From an uncultured Clostridium sp. (GTDB lineage Bacteria; Bacillota; Clostridia; TANB77; CAG-508), in assembly GCA_900553015.1 (NCBI GenBank), contig USBY01000006.1:19999-83998 (forward strand): a stretch of 64,000 bases of DNA, given 5' to 3'. Below the pieces are notes generated by a model. It saw only the letters and a list, made by a program, of their open reading frames with translations. It was not told where the DNA came from and did no database searches. Numbering within the stretch: position 1 is the stretch's first letter; every line of letters starts with the position of its first letter. Position numbers and translations under genes: made by a program. Below, piece after piece: positions 1,473 through 62,727 of this stretch.

Positions 1473-4400
1473 TTAATCTAAATCTTCATCATCATCAAGA
1501 TTATCTTTTGCTAAGTCATTACCATATAGGCCTTCATCATCTAAAAGTTCATCATTTTCAAATAGTTCATCACTATCTTCTTCTTTGTCTAAATCGATTT
1601 CTTCATCGTCAGCTTCTATATATGAACTTTCAATTTCGCTTTCATTTAGAACTAAATCTTCTTTCTTCTTTGCTTCATTATAGTCTATACCTTCGTCGAT
1701 ATCTTCTTTTAGTTCAATTTCTTTATTATCTTTTGTATATAATCTCATATCTAATCCTAATGATTGTAGTTCTTTTATTAATACTTTGAATGTTTCTGGA
1801 ATTCCAGGTTCTGGAACGTTTTCTCCTTTAACAATTGCTTCATAAGTTTTAACTCTTCCTACTACATCATCAGATTTAACTGTTAACATTTCTTGTAATG
1901 TATGAGCTGCACCATATGCTTCTAGTGCCCAAACTTCCATTTCTCCGAAACGTTGTCCACCGAATTGAGCTTTACCTCCTAATGGTTGTTGTGTAACTAA
2001 AGAATATGGTCCTGTTGAACGAGCATGTATTTTGTCATCTACTAAGTGATGTAACTTAAGCATGTACATAACTCCTACTGTAATTGGTTCAGCAAATGGA
2101 TCACCTGTTCTTCCATCATAAAGAATTGTTTTTCCATCTGGTGTATTTCCAGATTTAACTAATAATTCTTCTATTTCTTCAGATGTTGCACCATCAAAAA
2201 CTGGTGTTGCAACATTCCATCCTAATTCTTTTGCCGCTAATCCTAAGTGTACCTCTAAAACTTGACCTAAGTTCATACGAGAAGGAACACCTAATGGGTT
2301 TAATAGGATATCTACTGGTGTACCATCTGGCATAAATGGCATATCTTCTTCTGGTAATATTCTAGAAATTGTACCTTTGTTACCATGACGTCCAGCCATT
2401 TTATCACCAACTGATATTTTTCTCTTTGTTGCTATATAACATCTTATTATTTGGTTTACACCTGGTCCTAATTCATCTGAATTATCTCTTGTAAATATTT
2501 TTACATCTACAATTGTTCCAGCTTCACCATGTGGTACTTTAAGTGATGTATCTCTTACTTCACGAGCTTTTTCACCAAAAATTGCACGAAGTAATCTTTC
2601 TTCTGCTGTTAGTTCTGTTTCTCCCTTTGGAGTAACTTTACCAACTAATATGTCTCCAGGTCTTACTTCTGCACCAATTCTGATAATACCATTTTCGTCT
2701 AAGTCTTTTAAGCTATCTTCACCAACATTTGGTATATCTCTTGTTATTTCTTCTGGTCCTAATTTTGTATCACGACATTCGCAATCATATTCTTCTATAT
2801 GAATTGATGTAAATACATCTTCTTTTACTAATCTTTCATTTAAAAGTATAGCATCTTCGTAGTTATAACCTTCCCATGTAGAGAATGCTACTAATACGTT
2901 TCTTCCTAATGCCATTTCACCATTTTTAGTAGCTGGCCCGTCTGCTATTGCATCACCTTTTTTAACTTTTTCGCCTTTAACTACTATTGGTCTTTGGTTG
3001 ATACATGTACCACCATTTGTTCTTTTAAATTTATTTAATTTATGTGTTTTTGTTGTTCCATTATTATATTTAACAGTGATTGCTTCACCTGTAACTTTTT
3101 GGATTACACCATCATCTTCTGCTAAAATTAATATTCCAGAATCTTTTGCCGCTCTATATTCCATACCTGTACCAACGATTGGAGCTTCTGGCATAATTAA
3201 TGGAACTGCTTGACGTTGCATGTTTGCACCCATAAGCGCACGTTTTGCATCATCATGCTCTAAGAATGGTATCATGGCTGCACCAATTGAAACTAATTGT
3301 TTTGGTGAAACATCCATTCCTGTTACCATTTCTTTGTCTACTTCTATAATGTCATTTCTATATCTAACTTTAACTCTCTTATTTACAAATGTTCCATCTT
3401 CATTTAATGGTTCTTCAGCTTCTGCAATATAGTTACCATCTTCTACATCTGCACTCATGTATTCAACTTTATCTGTAACTGCATGTGTTTCTGGATCTAC
3501 TATTCTGTATGGTGTTTCTATAAATCCATATTCATTTATTTGTGCGAATGATGAAAGTGCAGATATAAGACCTATGTTTGGTCCTTCTGGTGATTCTATT
3601 GGACATAGTCTACCATAGTGTGTATAGTGAATATCACGAACTTCGAAACCTGCTCTTTCTCTTGAAAGACCTCCTGGTCCTAATGCAGAAATTCTTCTTT
3701 TATGTGTTAGTTCTGATAATGGGTTTGTTTGATCCATAAATTGTGATAATTGTGAACTACCAAAGAATTCTCTTATTGCTGATGTTATTGGTTTTGTATT
3801 AATTAATGTTTGTGGTGTTACTACATCTAAGTCTTGTATTGTCATTCTTTCACGAACAACTCTTTCTAATCTTGTTAAACCAATTCTAAATTGATTTTGT
3901 AATAACTCACCAACACAACGTATACGTCTATTTCCTAAATGGTCTATATCATCTATTTCTCCTAATTTATGGTCTAAGTTTAATAGGTAGTTAATAGATG
4001 CTAATATGTCTTCTGTTGTAACATGTTTTGGAACTAGTTCTTCATATCTTTGTTCTAATGCATGATGTAAATCTTTTTCTTCTGTATTGTCTAATATGCT
4101 TTTTAATACTTCATAATTTACCATTTCTTTAAAATGTAAGTCTGAAATATCTACATTTGTTACAAAATTATGAATATTTACTGTTCCATTTCCTATTATT
4201 TTTACTGGCTTATCTTCTACTCTTACTTCTACAACATTTATACCAGAATTTTGGATTTCGTCTGCTATATCTTTTGATATAACTTCTCCTGCTTCTACAA
4301 ATACTTCTCCTGTTTCTGGATTAACTATATCTGTATGTGCAATTTTTCCTTCAATTCTTGTTGCTAAACTTAATTTCTTATTGTATTTATATCTTCCTAC

Positions 4401-5204
4401 TTTTGCTAAATCATATCTTCTTGCATCAAAGAATAATCCATTAAATAAGTTTCTAGCAGCATCTACTGTTGGAAGTTCTCCTGGTCTTAATTTTTTGTAG
4501 ATTTCGATTAATGCTTCATCTTGAGTTTTTATTGGGTCTTTTTCTAATGTTACTCTTAATTTTTCTTCATTTCCAAAGAAATCAAGTATTTGTTCATCTG
4601 TTGCTAAGCCTAAAGCTCTTAATAATGTTGTTACTGGAATTTTTCTAGTTCTGTCTACACGAGCATAAAAAACATCGTTACTGTCTGTTTCATATTCTAT
4701 CCATGCCCCTCTTATTGGCATTACTGTTGATGTAAATAATTTTTTACCTGTTTTGTCATAGGTAAAGTCATAATAACATCCTGGTGAACGAACTAATTGG
4801 CTTACTACAACTCTTTCTGCACCGTTTATAATAAATGTTCCGCTATCTGTCATTAAAGGGAAATCTCCTAAATAGATTTCTTGTTCTTTAATTTCTCCTG
4901 TTTCACGATTGATTAATCTTACTTTTACATGTAAACGTGTAGAATATGTAGCATCTCTTTCTTTAGCTTCTTCTAAAGAATATTTTGTTTTTTCTTCCAT
5001 GTAGTAATCAAAAAACTCTAGAACTAAATTTCCTGAATAGTCGATGATTGGTGAAATGTCTTTTAAGACTTCTCCTAAACCTTCCTCGACAAACCACTCG
5101 TAAGAATCTCTTTGCACCTTAATTAAGTTAGGCATTTCTATAAAGTCTCCAACTTTTGCAAAGTCTTTTCTTGAGCTTTTTTCATGCTTAATTTCTTTTA
5201 ACAA
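1473..5204 (-). CDS. rpoB: DNA-directed RNA polymerase subunit beta, 1243 aa, TTG start, long acidic C-terminal tail
   Basis: ORF translation shows hallmark beta-subunit segments (MLKEIKHEK...[24 protein letters not shown]...; GRHGNKG; acidic C-terminus). RBS AGAGGTGA precedes the TTG start codon. Confidence 0.98.
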
Positions 5205-5499
5205 CTAAATCACCTCTAAAACAAAATATAAGCAGTTTGAAAAAATTGTATATGAACATTGAAAAGTCCCTCTTGCATCTAAAATTTTATATTAATTTCC
5301 AAATTCCTGCTTTATAAATTTTTCCATTAATATATCCTTTTAAATCAATTCCTCTTTCCAACTAATATAACCGTTTTTAGGCAACAAAAAGGCATGCTGG
5401 CAATTACCTGTTTTTATCTTTTGCCAACCTACCTTGTTCTTTAAAATTACTTTTTTCTAAATATTTTAATTATTTTTACCACCTTTTAGCGTTTAAAAT

Positions 5500-5545
5500 A
5501 CCGTTTGTATCATAGCACAATTCACCATGTTTTGTCAATAAATTA
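5500..5545 (-). promoter_or_regulatory. Putative sigma-A promoter for rpoB with an inverted repeat flanking the -35 box. Minus-strand -35 TTGACA at 5524-5529, TG-extended -10 TATGAT at 5500-5505, 18-nt spacer.
   Basis: Read directly from the sequence. The 10-bp inverted repeat AATTCACCAT (5510-5519) / ATGGTGAATT (5536-5545) brackets the -35 element, as an operator would. Confidence 0.4.
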
Positions 5546-5585
5546 TGGTGAATTTATACACTTTTTTTCTGCAAGGAAAAATATT

Positions 5586-6062
5586 TTAATTTAACTCTTC
5601 TAGCAACTTCTTTTTCATTTCAATTATGTCATAAAAAGGAATCTTTATTCCTCTTTCAAACATGTTAATTACTTGTCTTGAATAAGCTATTACTTTCTTT
5701 TTCTCTTTCATTGAAATTTCAACATCTTTGTTTGTTGTCGTATATTTTTCAAGTATGTATTTTTCAGTGGTGGGAAATAAATTCTGAATCAAGAAAACAG
5801 TTTTCTTTCCTACTACTTCTCCAAAAACAAAATTATATACTCTATGTTGTTTTTGTTTTTTATGTTCAAGTATTGTTTTATATTTTTCATATTTAGTAGA
5901 AATAGGAACAAACCAGATTATTCGTTTATCACATTTATCTTTAAAGCAAAAATAGCATGGTCTTTTACTTCCATTCTCTTTGTTGTCCATCAAATCATAC
6001 TCTTTAAATATGTCAAAAAATTCATCTTTAATAAAATAAAATTTTCCATCTTCTATTACCAT
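5586..6062 (-). CDS. Type III toxin-antitoxin toxin, ToxN/AbiQ-family endoribonuclease-like protein (158 aa)
   Basis: N-terminus KFYFIKDEFFDIFKEYD...NGSKRPCYFCF...IIWFVPISTKYEKYK parallels ToxN/AbiQ (KFYTIS.KYI..L...D.....N.RP..G.V....I.Y.APLSSPK). Size matches (158 aa). Preceded on the same strand by tandem repeats and a terminator hairpin, the canonical type III architecture. Confidence 0.7.
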   Translation of the reverse strand: MVIEDGKFYFIKDEFFDIFKEYDLMDNKENGSKRPCYFCFKDKCDKRIIWFVPISTKYEKYKTILEHKKQKQHRVYNFVFGEVVGKKTVFLIQNLFPTTEKYILEKYTTTNKDVEISMKEKKKVIAYSRQVINMFERGIKIPFYDIIEMKKKLLEELN

Positions 6063-6088
6063 TAAAATTCTCCTTTAAAGCAAAATAT

Positions 6089-6114
6089 GGGATCTACTAA
6101 AATTTATAGACCCC
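6089..6114 (-). terminator. Hairpin GGGGTCTATAAATTTTAGTAGATCCC between the repeat array and the toxin start, followed by a T-rich tract. Candidate attenuating terminator of the type III TA locus.
   Basis: Imperfect inverted repeat read directly from the sequence. Position matches ToxIN/AbiQ loci, where a terminator separates the antitoxin RNA from the toxin ORF. Confidence 0.4.
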
Positions 6115-6127
6115 ACATAATAATTAT

Positions 6128-6240
6128 CATTTTTTCACCTACTTATTTATATTCCGCAAGTAGGGGTGCGATTAACATTTTTTCACCTATACATTTATTC
6201 GACGCAAATAGGGTTGCGACTCACATTTTTTTAATAGTAG
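6128..6240 (-). repeat. Tandem direct repeats: 2 complete 48-nt units (6128-6175, 6176-6223) plus a partial third unit from 6224. Candidate type III antitoxin RNA (ToxI/antiQ/CptI-like).
   Basis: Unit A is cattttttcacctacttatttatattccgcaagtaggggtgcgattaa and unit B is cattttttcacctatacatttattcgacgcaaatagggttgcgactca, about 75% identical. The array sits directly upstream of the toxN-like ORF on the same strand. Confidence 0.6.
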
Positions 6241-6267
6241 ATATTAATATCTACTACTAGTATATTC

Positions 6268-6296
6268 ATTATACTTTATTTTATTTACAAAATCAA
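6268..6296 (-). promoter_or_regulatory. Sigma-A promoter driving the repeat array and toxin. Minus-strand -35 TTGATT at 6291-6296, 17-nt spacer, -10 TATAAT at 6268-6273. A 9-4-9 palindrome TAGTAGATAT-TAAT-ATCTACTA (6236-6262) lies at the transcript 5' end.
   Basis: Consensus hexamers with ideal spacing, read from the sequence. Confidence 0.5.
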
Positions 6297-6472
6297 TACA
6301 TTTTCAATTTTTTTGTGATAAAATTTGTTCCTTAATTCAACTTTATCTGTTTTTTAAAAAATAAAAATCACAAAAACATAATCTTCCTATTCTGCCATAA
6401 TTTAATTTGTAATTTTATATTTCATATGATATACTACAAAAAAATATTATAATAATTTAAGGTGATAAAAAA

Positions 6473-7966
6473 ATGCAAGATAATAATACAAAAGATAATA
6501 ACAATCAAAGAAATTTATCTGATGCTTTTGAGGAATTAAAAAAAGTTAGGAACAATAGTATGCAGGCAAAAAAAGAAACACCTAAAGAAGTAAATGAGAC
6601 TAAGCAAGTAAACAAAAATACAAATAATTCGACTTCAAAGCCTAAAAAAGAAAAACCTGCTAAACCTCCAAAAAGCAAGAAAGAAAAAAGAGCAAAAGCA
6701 GTAAAACCAAAACATGAACCAAAGCAAAAAAAATCTAACTTTAATGGTTCTTTTAGGTATAAGTTTGATACTTTAAAAAGTGATAAAAAGAAATTTAGGC
6801 AATTTATTATCTTATCTACGGTTTATTTGATAATTATAATCGCTTTAATTATTTTTATTGTTACATATATTTCTAATAAAAATAAAAAAGAAAATCCATA
6901 TGGCGATTTTAGTACTTACGAAAAAAACACAAATCCATTTAATATTAGTCAAATACTGATAGATAATACAAATTCTACTAAGACAAAGGAAAAAACTTAT
7001 AGGGATAAAGAAATTCCTTATTCTACTAAATATATTCAAAACTCATCTTTACCAAAAGACGAAAAAATAGTCAAGCAAGCCGGTGTCCCAGGTTTAGAAC
7101 GTGTTAATATTATTAGGACATATGAAGGTTCAGATTTAATTGATGAATCTACTTCTAGTATAGATATTTTACAAGCTCCTGTAGAGGAAATTGTTGAGGT
7201 TGGTACTTCTGATTTCTTAGTAAATTATAATGTACATTTAGGAGATACAATGTATGTTATTTCTACAGTATCTTTAATGGATGCAATTAACAATGGTTCT
7301 GAGATTTGTAAAATAACAAGATATATGGATGTTGTTTTATTAGAAGTCGTTGGTGATTGGTGCAAAATTTCTTTTGATGGACAAGAAGGATATGTTCCAG
7401 CATCTTCATTAACATCACAATCTACAACTCCTGGTATCGTTTCACAAAACAAAGTACAAAGAATTGTATCTAAATTAAACTTTAATATGGCATTAAATGT
7501 TAAGAGTGGTTTATCTCTAGATGATTACAAACGTATATTAGCTGATGAGCCAAGAGATGTAAATAAAGTAATATATAGTAATGCCGAAGCATTTTATAAT
7601 GCAGAACAAAAATATAATGTTAATGGACTTTTATTAGTAGCTATGGCTATTCACGAAAGTGGCTGGGGAACTTCTGCAATTTCATTAGACAAAAGAAACT
7701 TATTTGGTTATGGTGCATATGATAATGATGCATACAATTCTGCATATACATTTGATACTTATGCAGAAGGAATTGAGTTTGTAGCAAAAATACTTGCTAA
7801 AGCTTACTTAAACCCTGCTGGAATGACAATGTCAGATGGTGATACTACAACAGGAAGATATTATTCTAGTCCAACACTTACTGGAATTAATACAAGATAT
7901 TCTACAGACCCTAACTGGTGTACAAAAGTCTTCTCATACATGACATATTTTTATGATAAACTATAA
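6473..7966 (+). CDS. Membrane-anchored peptidoglycan hydrolase: Lys-rich cytoplasmic tail, TM segment, G5-like domain, SH3b domain and mannosyl-glycoprotein endo-beta-N-acetylglucosaminidase domain
   Basis: Glucosaminidase motif LLVAMAIHESGWGTSAISLDKRNLFGYGAYD. SH3b-like GDWCKISFDGQEGYVPASSL. G5-like segment KQAGVPGLERVNIIRTYEG. RBS AAGGTGA. Confidence 0.85.
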   Translation: MQDNNTKDNNNQRNLSDAFEELKKVRNNSMQAKKETPKEVNETKQVNKNTNNSTSKPKKEKPAKPPKSKKEKRAKAVKPKHEPKQKKSNFNGSFRYKFDTLKSDKKKFRQFIILSTVYLIIIIALIIFIVTYISNKNKKENPYGDFSTYEKNTNPFNISQILIDNTNSTKTKEKTYRDKEIPYSTKYIQNSSLPKDEKIVKQAGVPGLERVNIIRTYEGSDLIDESTSSIDILQAPVEEIVEVGTSDFLVNYNVHLGDTMYVISTVSLMDAINNGSEICKITRYMDVVLLEVVGDWCKISFDGQEGYVPASSLTSQSTTPGIVSQNKVQRIVSKLNFNMALNVKSGLSLDDYKRILADEPRDVNKVIYSNAEAFYNAEQKYNVNGLLLVAMAIHESGWGTSAISLDKRNLFGYGAYDNDAYNSAYTFDTYAEGIEFVAKILAKAYLNPAGMTMSDGDTTTGRYYSSPTLTGINTRYSTDPNWCTKVFSYMTYFYDKL

Positions 7967-41788: not shown

Positions 41789-41864
41789 TGGTGCACCACC
41801 GGGGGGTCGAACCCCGGACCTTCTGATTAAGAGTCAGCTGCTCTACCAACTGAGCTAGTGGTGC
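41789..41864 (-). tRNA. tRNA-Lys (anticodon CTT), 76 nt with encoded CCA
   Basis: Minus-strand sequence GCACCACTAGCTCAGTTGGTAGAGCAGCTGACTCTTAATCAGAAGGTCCGGGGTTCGACCCCCCGGTGGTGCACCA folds as a cloverleaf. Anticodon loop CTCTTAA. Upstream promoter TTGACA at 41914-41919. Confidence 0.9.
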
Positions 41865-46046: not shown

Positions 46047-46122
<76 letters not shown>

Positions 46123-46133
46123 ATATGGTCATA

Positions 46134-46208
46134 TGGTGACCCGTACGGGAATCGAACCCATGTCTCCGCCGTGAAAGGGCGATGTCTTAACCGCTTGACC
46201 AACGGGCC
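46134..46208 (-). tRNA. tRNA-Glu (anticodon TTC), 75 nt with CCA
   Basis: GGCCCGTTGGTCAAGCGGTTAAGACATCGCCCTTTCACGGCGGAGACATGGGTTCGATTCCCGTACGGGTCACCA on the minus strand. Anticodon loop CTTTCAC. Confidence 0.9.
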
Positions 46209-46249
46209 ATAAATATAAATGAATACTAAAGATTAGTTTAGTATTCATT

Positions 46250-46325
46250 TGGTGAGCTATCCGCGACTCGAACGCGGGACAACTTGATTAAAAGTCAAGT
46301 GCTCTACCACCTGAGCTAATAGCCC
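46250..46325 (-). tRNA. tRNA-Lys (anticodon TTT), 76 nt with CCA
   Basis: GGGCTATTAGCTCAGGTGGTAGAGCACTTGACTTTTAATCAAGTTGTCCCGCGTTCGAGTCGCGGATAGCTCACCA on the minus strand. Anticodon loop CTTTTAA. Confidence 0.9.
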
Positions 46326-62611: not shown

Positions 62612-62727
62612 TTAGCCTCTCTATGGAAAGCAATTACCCACATAAATACACTACTTATTGCTGCTTCCTTCCGGACCTGACAAGGTTCATAGCTTTTTAT
62701 TGGGATTGCCCTCCATACAAAGGCTAA
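62612..62727 (-). ncRNA. ffs: Signal recognition particle RNA (4.5S / small-type SRP RNA; gene ffs)
   Basis: Minus strand contains the universal domain IV sequence GTCAGGTCCGGAAGGAAGCAGC, flanked by complementary arms TTAGCCTTTGTATGGAGGGCAAT / ATTGCTTTCCATAGAGAGGCTAA forming helix 5. Lies directly upstream of dnaX, as in other Firmicutes. TTGCTA-17-TATAAT promoter lies just upstream. Confidence 0.8.

What the first reader, a model, noticed from the sequence alone, without database searches (positions are those of the whole stretch)
5586..6296. Complete type III toxin-antitoxin (ToxIN/AbiQ-like) abortive-infection locus immediately upstream of rpoB
The minus strand shows the full canonical architecture of type III toxin-antitoxin systems.
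- A strong sigma-A promoter (TTGATT-17-TATAAT).
- 2.5 tandem 48-nt direct repeats, the candidate pseudoknot antitoxin RNA.
- An imperfect hairpin terminator.
- A 158-aa ORF with ToxN/AbiQ-like N-terminal sequence features.

The repeat unit is 48 nt, longer than the 34-36 nt of ToxI/antiQ. This may therefore be a distinct (CptIN-like or new) type III family. Its position, displacing the usual rplJ-rplL genes upstream of rpoB, is unusual.
Basis: partly seen in the sequence, partly recalled or inferred. Interest (0 to 1): 0.6.

Follow-up and report, generated by a model that had tools for sequence, protein, structure and literature searches.

The report
CptIN type III toxin-antitoxin cassette
A compact 0.8-kb toxin-antitoxin module of the already known CptIN family (an RNA-cutting toxin kept in check by two pseudoknotted RNA repeats) sits just upstream of the rpoB promoter in some strains of a gut Clostridia species; it is real and well supported, but an ordinary new member of a known kind.

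Summary
The toxin passes NCBIfam's CptIN toxin model (158.6 bits, cutoff 90). It matches the CptN crystal structure 4RMO by sequence (E 4.7e-20) and by predicted fold (TM 0.79-0.80). It gets no ToxN/AbiQ Pfam hit and no PADLOC hit. Each repeat folds as an H-type pseudoknot: across 60 distinct units from 81 loci, 98.5% of cells pair and 7 of 10 pairs show compensatory changes. The family's consensus A-rich loop, AUAUAAAUG, is identical to loop L2 of E. rectale CptI. A 48-nt repeat in about 2.25 copies lies within the published cptIN range (40-48 nt; 1.9-3.4 copies), so this is not a new family. The "displaced rplJ-rplL" idea fails. Sixteen conspecific contigs have an empty site, with the glucosaminidase gene 481 nt from rpoB and no rplJ/rplL. 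The window carries an 808-bp insert (5568-6375). Abortive infection has never been shown for CptIN. One modest variant feature: units 1 and 2 are only about 75% identical and are conserved by position in all 80 related loci. Verdict: new member of a known kind.

The parts
6291..6296 (-). -35 hexamer TTGATT of the cptIN promoter
   Evidence: Consensus scan. A TTGAnn hexamer sits at the same position in related loci.
6268..6273 (-). -10 hexamer TATAAT, within the conserved TATAATGAATATA, 17-nt spacer
   Evidence: TATAAT is found in 75 of 79 related loci at the equivalent place.
6232..6259 (-). 5' stem-loop (perfect 12-bp palindrome TAGTAGATAT..ATATCTACTA region) at the start of the transcript, just upstream of unit 1
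   Evidence: Inverted repeat I6. The MFE fold recovers it. A hairpin of at least 5 bp is present in 78 of 80 loci; its sequence differs between clades but the stem is kept. Its function is inferred (5'-end stabiliser or boundary element) and was not tested.
6183..6230 (-). Antitoxin unit 1 (cptI repeat 1, 48 nt). H-type pseudoknot: S1 6218-6214/6207-6203, L1 6213, S2 6212-6208/6190-6186, A-rich L2 6202-6191
   Evidence: TRF, nhmmer, covariation, coordinates.
6135..6182 (-). Antitoxin unit 2 (cptI repeat 2, 48 nt). S1 6170-6166/6159-6155, L1 6165, S2 6164-6160/6142-6138, L2 6154-6143 containing AUAUAAAU
   Evidence: It is 100% identical to unit 2 of L001, L002, L008 and L011.
6123..6134 (-). 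Partial third unit (AAAAAUGAUAAU), a copy of the 12-nt single-stranded 5' tail of a unit. Inferred to supply the downstream half of the processing site at the 3' end of unit 2
   Evidence: Present after unit 2 in the related loci listed. The role is inferred by analogy with CptI_Er, whose processing needed flanking 5'-GA and 3'-AAG (PMC4627078).
6081..6118 (-). Intrinsic terminator between the antitoxin repeats and the toxin gene (13-pair stem, 8-nt loop, T-run)
   Evidence: the only terminator-like site in 5000-6600. Searches give the fold. A hairpin plus T-run is found in 80 of 81 loci, with different stem sequences between clades.
6070..6076 (-). Shine-Dalgarno AAAGGAG, 7 nt upstream of the ATG
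   Evidence: Read directly from the sequence. Conserved AGGAG/GAGG in related loci.
5586..6062 (-). cptN, 158-aa CptN-family endoribonuclease toxin
   Evidence: NF047359 CptIN toxin equivalog, E 9.4e-47, 158.6 bits against cutoff 90, covering positions 1-150 of 150. 4RMO_A E 4.7e-20. AF2 model to 4RMO_A TM 0.79/0.80. 671 homologues.
5568..6375 (.). Strain-specific 808-bp insert carrying the whole cassette, relative to the empty site of conspecific contigs
   Evidence: Left-flank homology to empty sites ends at 6376 and right-flank homology resumes at 5567. Homology to cptIN loci in other genomes is confined to about 6313 (at most 6348) down to about 5580-5611.

Best explanation
This is an intact CptIN-family type III toxin-antitoxin cassette.

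Inferred mechanism, by homology with CptIN of Eubacterium rectale:
- A constitutive sigma-A-type promoter (6296..6268) drives a short transcript. It consists of a 5' hairpin, two 48-nt pseudoknot units, a 12-nt partial third unit and an intrinsic terminator.
- Only the fraction of transcripts that read through the terminator carries cptN, so antitoxin RNA is made in excess over toxin.
- CptN, an endoribonuclease with the ToxN/Kid-like fold, cuts the precursor in the single-stranded A-rich linkers between pseudoknots.
- CptN stays bound to the processed units in a closed, inactive protein-RNA ring, which is 2 CptN : 2 CptI in E. rectale. One transcript supplies two units.
- If transcription of the cassette stops or the RNA is depleted, free CptN cleaves cellular RNAs and arrests growth.

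Shown here: family membership of the toxin, the pseudoknot fold of both units, conservation of every part of the locus, and the accessory (present or absent) status of the cassette.

Inferred: toxicity, self-processing, the exact cleavage site, ring stoichiometry and the biological role. The role is most likely self-maintenance or stabilisation of the DNA it rides on. Phage defence is possible but unproven for this family.
For: Toxin:
- NCBIfam CptIN equivalog at 158.6 bits against a cutoff of 90, full length.
- 4RMO CptN by sequence, E 4.7e-20.
- The predicted structure's best PDB match is 4RMO_A (TM 0.79/0.80, E 1.3e-9), followed by ToxN, AbiQ and MazF.
- S55-T56-K57 and Y107 align with the CptN_Er active-site residues S51-S52-R53 and Y104 and are invariant in 15 homologues (PMC4627078).

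RNA:
- Exactly two units lie upstream of the toxin gene in 80 of 80 loci.
- On 60 distinct units the pseudoknot gives 98.5% paired cells and 7 of 10 pairs with compensatory changes. None of 500 shuffles reached those values, and slid controls paired in 24-52% of cells.
- Each unit on its own is 97-100% paired.
- The architecture (S1 5 bp, L1 1 nt, S2 5 bp, long A-rich L2) matches CptI_Er. The family consensus L2, AUAUAAAUG, equals CptI_Er A27-G35, which includes the functionally essential A29 and U30.

Locus:
- Promoter, 5' hairpin, partial third unit, terminator and SD are conserved.
- Repeat length and copy number are within the published cptIN range.

Accessory status:
- 16 empty conspecific sites, 1 intact copy and 1 decayed copy.
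- A conserved large serine recombinase lies co-directionally downstream of cptN in 26 of 80 other loci.
Against: - No experiment was done: toxicity, neutralisation and processing all rest on homology.
- The Arg of the Ser-Ser/Thr-Arg triad is Lys here.
- The residues that specify the scissile adenine in CptN_Er (Asp81, Ser85) have no clearly conserved counterpart in the alignment, so cleavage specificity may differ.
- The nucleotides at the predicted unit boundary (unit positions 48, 1 and 2) vary between loci, while AAUGU at positions 4-8 is invariant. The cleavage register is therefore uncertain.
- Only one of the five AF2 models was confident (pLDDT 78.2 against 39-51 for the others).
- The two units are only 77% identical. 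Reported cptIN repeats are described as nearly identical, and single substitutions in CptI_Er abolish antitoxicity (PMC12283969; PMC4627078).
- There is no Rfam family to compare against.
Confidence: 0.9

Rival explanations
1. A ToxIN/AbiQ-family abortive-infection system: a ToxN-type toxin with a ToxI/antiQ-type RNA that acts mainly as a phage-triggered suicide module.
For: The gene order is the same. The predicted fold also resembles ToxN (2XD0, 7D8O, TM about 0.64) and AbiQ (4GLK, TM 0.68).
Against: There is no PF13958 hit at E up to 10 and no PADLOC model hit. The best sequence and fold matches are CptN. The repeat is 48 nt rather than 34-36 nt. The L2 motif is that of CptI, not the ToxI triplex type. 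No CptIN system tested has shown an Abi phenotype. No relative of this clade was found in IMG/VR or INPHARED phage records.
Confidence: 0.03
2. A new, fourth type III family distinct from CptIN, as suggested by the long 48-nt repeat.
For: The repeat is at the upper limit of the known range. The units are non-identical. Identity to CptN_Er is only about 30%.
Against: The toxin scores far above the curated cutoff of the CptIN equivalog model over its full length. 48 nt is inside the published 40-48 nt range. The RNA shares pseudoknot topology with CptI_Er, and the consensus L2 AUAUAAAUG is an exact match.
Confidence: 0.03
3. An inactive relic: the cassette is decaying or domesticated, and no longer works as a toxin-antitoxin pair in this strain.
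For: A decayed copy exists at the same site in another strain (L088: one hybrid unit and a fragmented toxin gene). Most conspecific strains lack the cassette. The window has no linked recombinase.
Against: The window ORF is full length and matches positions 1-150 of 150 of the family model. It is 99-100% identical in independent metagenome contigs. The aligned active-site residues are conserved. Both pseudoknots, the promoter and the terminator are intact.
Confidence: 0.05
4. A cis-regulatory leader: the structured repeats and terminator act as an attenuator for the downstream ORF or for rpoBC, rather than as a trans-acting antitoxin.
For: A terminator sits between the repeats and the ORF. The cassette ends 29 nt upstream of the rpoB -35, and no clear terminator follows cptN.
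Against: The cassette is absent from 16 conspecific contigs, whose rpoB promoter and leader are otherwise the same. The same cassette sits in unrelated contexts in 80 other genomes, none of them next to rpoB. The repeats match a structurally characterised antitoxin.
Confidence: 0.01

Closest known systems
CptIN of Eubacterium rectale (PDB 4RMO; Rao et al. 2015, PMC4627078) and the cptIN family of Blower et al. 2012 (PMC3401426)
   Same: - The toxin passes the CptIN equivalog model, and its best sequence and fold match is 4RMO.
- Layout: promoter, about 2 tandem repeats, terminator, toxin.
- Repeat length and copy number fall within the family range (40-48 nt; 1.9-3.4 copies).
- The RNA is an H-type pseudoknot with a 1-nt L1 and a long A-rich L2.
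- The consensus L2, AUAUAAAUG, is identical to CptI_Er A27-G35.
- The window's units end in ..UGA followed by AA.., like CptI_Er (..UUGA^AAG..).
- The locus is chromosomal.
   Different: - About 30% protein identity.
- Lys instead of Arg in the Ser-Ser/Thr-Arg triad; no clear counterparts of Asp81 and Ser85.
- Unit length 48 nt rather than 45: a 12-nt 5' tail instead of 6, a 12-nt L2 instead of 9, and no spacer between the 5' arm of S2 and the 3' arm of S1.
- The stem sequences are unrelated.
- The two units are non-identical (77% in the window, mean 75% in the clade) and are conserved by position.
- A conserved 5' hairpin precedes unit 1.
- The cassette is a strain-variable 0.8-kb insert.
ToxIN (Pectobacterium atrosepticum, Bacillus thuringiensis, E. 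coli) and AbiQ/antiQ (Lactococcus lactis)
   Same: The type III logic is the same: repeat RNA, terminator, endoribonuclease toxin of the same fold class (Foldseek hits 2XD0, 7D8O, 4ATO and 4GLK), and a pseudoknot antitoxin processed by its own toxin.
   Different: - No sequence-profile match (PF13958 absent).
- ToxI/antiQ units are 34-36 nt, present in more copies, and stabilised by base triplexes.
- ToxIN forms a 3:3 triangular complex rather than a 2:2 ring.
- ToxIN and AbiQ have demonstrated Abi phenotypes; CptIN does not.
TenpIN family (Photorhabdus luminescens; 2025 survey PMC12283969)
   Same: About two long repeats, and in many loci non-identical repeats with a conserved A-rich stretch.
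   Different: The toxin family is different. The NCBIfam and Pfam scans returned only the CptIN model for this protein.

Membership tests
CptIN (type III TA) | Toxin sequence belongs to the CptN family | tested here: met
   NF047359.1 'type III toxin-antitoxin system CptIN family toxin' (equivalog): E 9.4e-47, 158.6 bits against a cutoff of 90; residues 6-153 match profile positions 1-150 of 150. phmmer to 4RMO_A gives E 4.7e-20.
CptIN (type III TA) | Toxin adopts the CptN fold (twisted beta-sheet core with surrounding helices; ToxN/Kid-like) | tested here: met
   AF2 model with pLDDT 78.2 and pTM 0.76. The top Foldseek PDB hit is 4RMO_A: TM 0.79/0.80, rmsd 2.9, E 1.3e-9. Caveat: this is a prediction, and only one of the five models was confident.
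CptIN (type III TA) | Conserved RNase active site (Ser-Ser/Thr-Arg triad; Tyr104; Asp81/Ser85 in CptN_Er) | tested here: inconclusive
   In the alignment S51-S52-R53 aligns with S55-T56-K57, and Y104 with Y107. All are invariant in 15 homologues. Arg is replaced by Lys. The Asp81 and Ser85 counterparts fall next to an alignment gap and are not conserved.
CptIN (type III TA) | Gene order: promoter, tandem repeats, Rho-independent terminator, toxin ORF | tested here: met
   Conserved across 80 loci.
CptIN (type III TA) | Repeat length 40-48 nt and 1.9-3.4 copies (Blower 2012, Table 2) | tested here: met
   48 nt; two full units plus a 12-nt partial (TRF 2.3 copies).
CptIN (type III TA) | Antitoxin unit is an H-type pseudoknot with a 1-nt L1 and a long A-rich L2 (A-minor twist) | tested here: met
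   Covariation: 98.5% of cells paired, 7 of 10 pairs compensatory, 0 of 500 shuffles reaching the observed values, slid controls 24-52%. L1 is an invariant single C. The consensus L2, AUAUAAAUG, is identical to CptI_Er A27-G35. The A-minor twist itself (tertiary contacts) cannot be tested from sequence.
CptIN (type III TA) | Toxin is toxic, is neutralised by its own repeat RNA, and processes that RNA into single units | not testable with these tools
   Needs expression and rescue assays and RNA end-mapping.
CptIN (type III TA) | 2:2 heterotetrameric protein-RNA ring | not testable with these tools
   Known only for CptIN_Er. Two units per transcript in 80 of 80 loci is compatible with it but is not a test.
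ToxIN / AbiQ (type III TA) | Toxin matches the ToxN/AbiQ profile (Pfam PF13958) | tested here: not met
   The Pfam scan at E up to 10 lists only three sub-threshold unrelated families. PADLOC returned no families.
ToxIN / AbiQ (type III TA) | Repeat units of about 34-36 nt in about 2.8-5.5 copies | tested here: not met
   48 nt, about 2.25 copies.
ToxIN / AbiQ (type III TA) | Abortive-infection phenotype | not testable with these tools
   No phenotype data for this locus. The CptIN systems tested gave no protection in E. coli.
TenpIN (type III TA) | Toxin belongs to the TenpN family | tested here: not met
   The NCBIfam and Pfam scans returned no type III toxin family other than CptIN for this protein. 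I did not verify that a dedicated TenpN model is in those libraries, so this is a weak test.

The most novel reading that the evidence does not exclude
The two antitoxin units may not be interchangeable copies but two specialised, position-specific pseudoknots.

- In all 80 related loci each unit's closest relatives sit at the same array position (160 of 160).
- Units 1 and 2 never share the same S2 helix (0 of 80 loci).
- Both units keep their fold by compensatory change.

The most novel reading is that one transcript supplies one U1 and one U2, which together close an asymmetric CptN2:U1:U2 ring. An alternative is that the distinct S2 'barcodes' enforce correct folding of neighbouring pseudoknots. 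Either would depart from the 'identical repeats' picture of ToxIN and CptIN.
Probability: 0.3. Interest if true: 0.45.

Novelty: new member of a known kind. Interest (0 to 1): 0.25.

Why it matters
For annotation, a protein that public records call 'hypothetical' and an RNA with no Rfam family can be labelled confidently as cptN and cptI.

For type III TA biology, the 80 loci provide a natural covariation data set. It confirms the CptI pseudoknot and the conserved AUAUAAAUG loop outside E. rectale. It also shows a CptIN clade with two diverged, position-specific units, which bears on whether non-identical repeats are both functional, a question left open in the 2025 tenpIN survey.

The empty, intact and decayed alleles at one chromosomal site, and the link to a serine recombinase elsewhere, document CptIN as a mobile accessory mini-cassette in uncultured gut Clostridia. 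None of this changes the understanding of how type III systems work.

Tried and rejected
- Pfam and PADLOC scans for ToxN/AbiQ or any defence model: nothing.
- Rfam on the locus at E up to 10 and on the whole window at gathering thresholds: no antitoxin family, only a chance Na+ riboswitch hit inside the ORF, four tRNAs and SRP RNA.
- Synteny with rpoB in the toxin-anchored loci: no rpoB or other window neighbour in any of the 80. The rpoB adjacency is therefore not a family feature.
- Mosaic or recombinant array (U1 of L010 type, U2 of L001 type): considered and rejected. The toxin is closer to the L001 type along almost its whole length, and simple descent with later change of U1 in the L001 group explains the pattern.
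- Supplementary tables of Blower 2012 for cptI sequences: not held. The CptI_Er sequence was taken instead from the CptI-WT primer in Rao 2015.
- First terminator count using the RNAfold MFE failed because the A-tract pairs with the T-run (6 of 80). It was redone with an explicit stem plus T-run search (80 of 81).
- The first global MAFFT alignment misplaced the left flank of the empty sites; this was resolved with local pairwise alignments.
- Phage origin: no relatives in IMG/VR or INPHARED.
- No target-site duplication or terminal repeats were evident at the insert junctions by eye. This was not examined systematically.
Full report
**Observation**

- A 158-aa ATG-initiated ORF lies at 5586..6062.
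- Tandem Repeats Finder reports a 48-nt period, 2.3 copies and 80% matches at 6123..6231.
- The consensus scan finds TTGATT-17-TATAAT at 6296..6268, and a single terminator-like hairpin with a T-run at 6118..6085 (13 pairs, 8-nt loop; 0.3 such sites expected by chance).

Promoter-like matches are frequent in this 28% G+C sequence (20 found against 9.4 +/- 3.6 expected). The promoter call therefore rests on conservation, described below. Exact anatomy:
- 5' hairpin: 6259..6232
- unit 1: 6230..6183
- unit 2: 6182..6135
- 12-nt partial third unit: 6134..6123
- terminator: 6118..6081
- SD AAAGGAG: 6076..6070
- ATG at 6062

**The toxin is a CptN, not a ToxN/AbiQ**

- Pfam gives no ToxN/AbiQ hit even at E up to 10, and PADLOC gives nothing.
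- NCBIfam's equivalog model NF047359, 'type III toxin-antitoxin system CptIN family toxin', matches over its full length at E 9.4e-47 and 158.6 bits, against a curated cutoff of 90.
- The only solved structure found by sequence is 4RMO chain A, the CptN toxin of Eubacterium rectale (E 4.7e-20).
- An AlphaFold2 model built on 15 homologues (pLDDT 78.2; only one of five models was confident) has 4RMO_A as its best PDB match (TM 0.79/0.80, E 1.3e-9). ToxN (2XD0, 7D8O, 4ATO), AbiQ (4GLK) and MazF follow.
- In the alignment the CptN_Er active-site residues S51-S52-R53 and Y104 (PMC4627078) correspond to S55-T56-K57 and Y107. All four are invariant in the 15-sequence alignment.
- The residues that read the scissile adenine in CptN_Er (Asp81, Ser85) have no clear conserved counterpart.

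**The repeats are CptI-type pseudoknots**

I fetched 80 loci encoding relatives of the toxin (62-78% identical) from GTDB species-representative genomes. Nearly all are uncultured Clostridia MAGs, together with Clostridium sp. CAG:245.
- TRF found a 46-48-nt array of about 2.2 copies upstream of the toxin gene in about 70 of them.
- A profile built from the window's two units found exactly two units in all 80.
- The 60 distinct units align in 49 columns (A2).
- I tested an H-type pseudoknot: S1 columns 13-17 with 25-29, a single-nucleotide L1, and S2 columns 19-24 with 42-46.
- This gave 98.5% paired cells and 7 of 10 pairs with changes on both sides.
- None of 500 shuffles reached the observed values, and slid controls paired in only 24-52% of cells.
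- S1 occurs as CGCAA/UUGCG, CGCCA/UGGCG and CGGAG/CUCCG.
- S2 occurs as CCUAU/AUAGG, CCUAC/GUAGG, CCUGC/GCAGG, CCUGU/ACAGG and UCAC/GUGA.

The E. rectale CptI repeat can be read from the CptI-WT primer in Rao et al.: AAGUUUACCACUGACCGAUAUGUGGUAUAUAAAUGGUCGGGUUGA. Its numbering reproduces the paper's L1 = G13, L2 = A27-G35, the U30 kink and the G44-A45 terminus.
- That RNA is an H-type pseudoknot with a one-base L1 and a long A-rich L2 that forms an A-minor twist. A29U and delta-U30 abolish antitoxicity.
- The family consensus here has L2 = AGAUAUAAAUG. Its last nine bases, AUAUAAAUG, are identical to CptI_Er A27-G35, although the stems share no sequence.
- The window's unit 2 carries AUAUAAAU and unit 1 carries AAUAAAUG.
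- The window's units end in ..GGUGA followed by AAAAAUG.., which resembles the CptI_Er boundary ..UUGA^AAG...
- Rfam has no matching family.

**Every part of the locus is conserved**

Across loci whose toxins are as little as 62% identical to the window's, the following recur.
- A TTGAnn hexamer sits 17 nt upstream of TATAATGAATATA (TATAAT in 75 of 79 loci).
- A stem-loop follows the -10 directly. Its sequence differs between clades (TAGTAGATAT/ATATCTACTA against AGAGATAC/GUAUCU) but the stem persists. A hairpin of at least 5 bp is present in 78 of 80 loci, with mean z of -4.7.
- Then come units 1 and 2, a copy of the 12-nt 5' tail of a unit, and a terminator hairpin with a T-run. The terminator is found in 80 of 81 loci, again with clade-specific stems such as GGGGUCUA/UAGAUCCC and AAUCUACC/GGUAGAUU.
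- An SD sequence and the ATG follow.
- The 200-nt leader folds with z = -3.98. The nested MFE recovers the 5' hairpin, one helix of each pseudoknot and the terminator.

**Published range**

Blower et al. 2012 list cptIN repeats of 40-48 nt (mean 44.8), 1.9-3.4 copies, and toxins of 45-213 aa. The window's values (48 nt, about 2.25 copies, 158 aa) are inside that range.

**Genomic context**

None of the 80 toxin-anchored loci has rpoB or any other window neighbour within 4 kb. Only 99%-identical copies share the window's context of G5-glucosaminidase, then cptIN, then rpoB-rpoC (L081-L084).

I then anchored on the N-terminal 400 residues of RpoB and fetched 80 metagenome loci.
- In 16 conspecific contigs (RpoB 98-100% identical) the glucosaminidase gene starts 480-482 nt upstream of rpoB, against 1,269 nt in the window.
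- One contig (L086) has the identical cassette.
- One contig (L088) has a decayed copy with the promoter, a single hybrid unit and fragments of the toxin gene.
- Sister-species contigs (RpoB 94-95%) are also empty.
- Local alignments place the junctions at window 6376 and 5567. The insert is therefore 5568..6375 (808 bp), replacing about 20 nt of the empty site.
- DNA homology to cptIN loci of other genomes is confined to about 6313 down to 5580-5611.

The rpoB promoter (TTGACA-18-TGcTATGAT, 5538..5509) and its roughly 300-nt leader are native, because they are present in the empty sites.

Probes for L7/L12, L10, L11 and L1 find nothing in the 64-kb window or in the 6 kb upstream of rpoB in any of the 80 loci. 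The L12 and L10 probes were validated against Pfam. The absence of rplJ-rplL upstream of rpoB is therefore a property of this lineage and predates the cassette; nothing was displaced.

Elsewhere the cassette looks mobile.
- 26 of 80 loci have a large serine recombinase (PF00239, PF07508, PF13408) co-directionally 145-1,660 bp downstream of cptN.
- That recombinase is more conserved (mean 92% pairwise identity) than the adjacent toxins (75%).
- The window has no such recombinase.
- No relative was found in IMG/VR or in INPHARED phages.
- Distant CptN homologues (29-39% identity) occur on 15 PLSDB plasmids.

**Mechanism (inferred from CptIN_Er)**

- The promoter drives a short RNA that mostly ends at the terminator. 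Read-through yields cptN mRNA, so antitoxin is in excess.
- CptN cuts the precursor in the single-stranded linkers and keeps the processed pseudoknots bound in an inactive closed ring.
- Loss of transcription frees the RNase.
- The partial third unit most plausibly supplies the downstream half of the site at the 3' end of unit 2.
- The cleavage register is uncertain. By homology it follows ..GGUGA. However, unit positions 48, 1 and 2 vary between loci, whereas AAUGU at positions 4-8 is invariant.

As to role, CptIN_Er stabilised a plasmid. The two CptIN systems tested protected E. coli against none of 6 phages, and CptIN_Er against none of more than 200 coliphages. 'Abortive infection' is therefore unproven for this family. 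The presence/absence polymorphism and the recombinase linkage fit a selfish or stabilising accessory module at least as well.

**A modest variant feature**

- Units 1 and 2 are 77% identical in the window and 75% on average in the clade. Unit 1 to unit 1 and unit 2 to unit 2 identities across loci are 80% and 84%.
- Every unit's closest relatives in other loci occupy the same array position (160 of 160).
- Each unit on its own keeps the pseudoknot (97-100% paired). Units 1 and 2 never share the same S2 helix (0 of 80 loci).
- The S2 pair next to S1 is U-A in unit 1 (26 of 30 distinct sequences) and C-G in unit 2 (30 of 30).
- Cognate S2 arms form 4.91 of 5 pairs, against 4.00 for cross-combinations.
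- A 2025 survey describes reported toxIN and cptIN repeats as 'usually nearly identical'.
- The duplication therefore predates the divergence of this clade, and there is no concerted evolution.
- Whether this reflects functional specialisation, folding fidelity or simply the absence of gene conversion is open.

**Verdict**

It is wrong about the headline family, the significance of 48 nt, the Abi label and the rplJ-rplL displacement.

This is a new, unannotated member of a known family; the near-identical protein is 'hypothetical protein' in public records. Interest is low to moderate: 0.25.

Noticed in passing
window 5509-5555 and 5205-5508: The rpoB promoter (TTGACA-18-TGcTATGAT) has a 10-bp inverted repeat, AAATTCACCAT..ATGGTGAATT, bracketing its -35. 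It is followed by a leader of about 300 nt that is nearly identical in conspecific contigs and highly conserved even in sister species with 94-95% RpoB identity. Both are present in empty sites, so they are native to rpoB. There is no Rfam match. This could be an uncharacterised rpoBC leader or operator.
   Followed up: partly
window 1473-5204 (minus strand): rpoB starts with TTG and encodes an unusually long, highly acidic C-terminal tail (...[47 protein letters not shown]).
   Followed up: no
window 1-64000; L085-L164: rplJ-rplL (and rplK-rplA) are not upstream of rpoB in this lineage. There are no L10, L12, L11 or L1 hits in the 64-kb window, or within 6 kb upstream of rpoB in 80 related metagenome loci. 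This departs from the usual rplKAJL-rpoBC arrangement and is independent of the TA cassette.
   Followed up: partly
L088:5025-6000: A decayed cptIN sits at the same chromosomal site in another strain. The promoter is retained, a single hybrid unit remains (unit-1-like 5' half, unit-2-like 3' half, consistent with unequal crossover), and the toxin gene is reduced to fragments about 79% identical to the window's. This is an example of TA decay in which the antitoxin outlives the toxin.
   Followed up: partly
L005-L077 (26 loci), e.g. L010:4636-6225: A large serine recombinase (Resolvase, Recombinase and Zn-ribbon domains) lies co-directionally 145-1,660 bp downstream of cptN. Across loci it is more conserved (mean 92% identity) than the neighbouring toxin (mean 75%; correlation 0.17). 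This suggests that cptIN alleles diversify or are exchanged next to a conserved mobile-element recombinase. A DUF6076 protein and a small unannotated 155-aa protein recur upstream.
   Followed up: partly
PLSDB hits H1-H15 (e.g. NZ_CP075965.1, NZ_CP048628.1, AP012045.1): Distant CptN homologues (29-39% identity) annotated 'hypothetical protein' occur on 15 plasmids of Clostridium perfringens, Megamonas, Oscillibacter, Planococcus, Fusobacterium and others. Blower et al. 2012 found cptIN only on chromosomes. I did not check whether repeats precede them.
   Followed up: no
L086:1-1500: The one metagenome contig with an identical cassette plus rpoB has a different left neighbour: a membrane protein with MotA/ExbB-like sequence features (by eye) and higher G+C, instead of the G5-glucosaminidase gene. 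Similarity to the window ends at about window 6444. The contig has about 3x coverage, so this may be an assembly chimera or a genuine rearrangement.
   Followed up: no
window 6232-6259 and equivalent positions in L001-L080: A conserved 5' stem-loop (also a perfect DNA palindrome) lies directly after the -10 and before unit 1, in 78 of 80 loci, with clade-specific sequence. I did not find it described for type III loci in the papers read. RNA 5'-end protection and an operator cannot be told apart from sequence.
   Followed up: partly
window 41792-41864, 46050-46325, 62624-62712: Four tRNA genes (three of them clustered) and the small SRP RNA, all on the minus strand. These are the only Rfam gathering-level hits in the window.
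   Followed up: no
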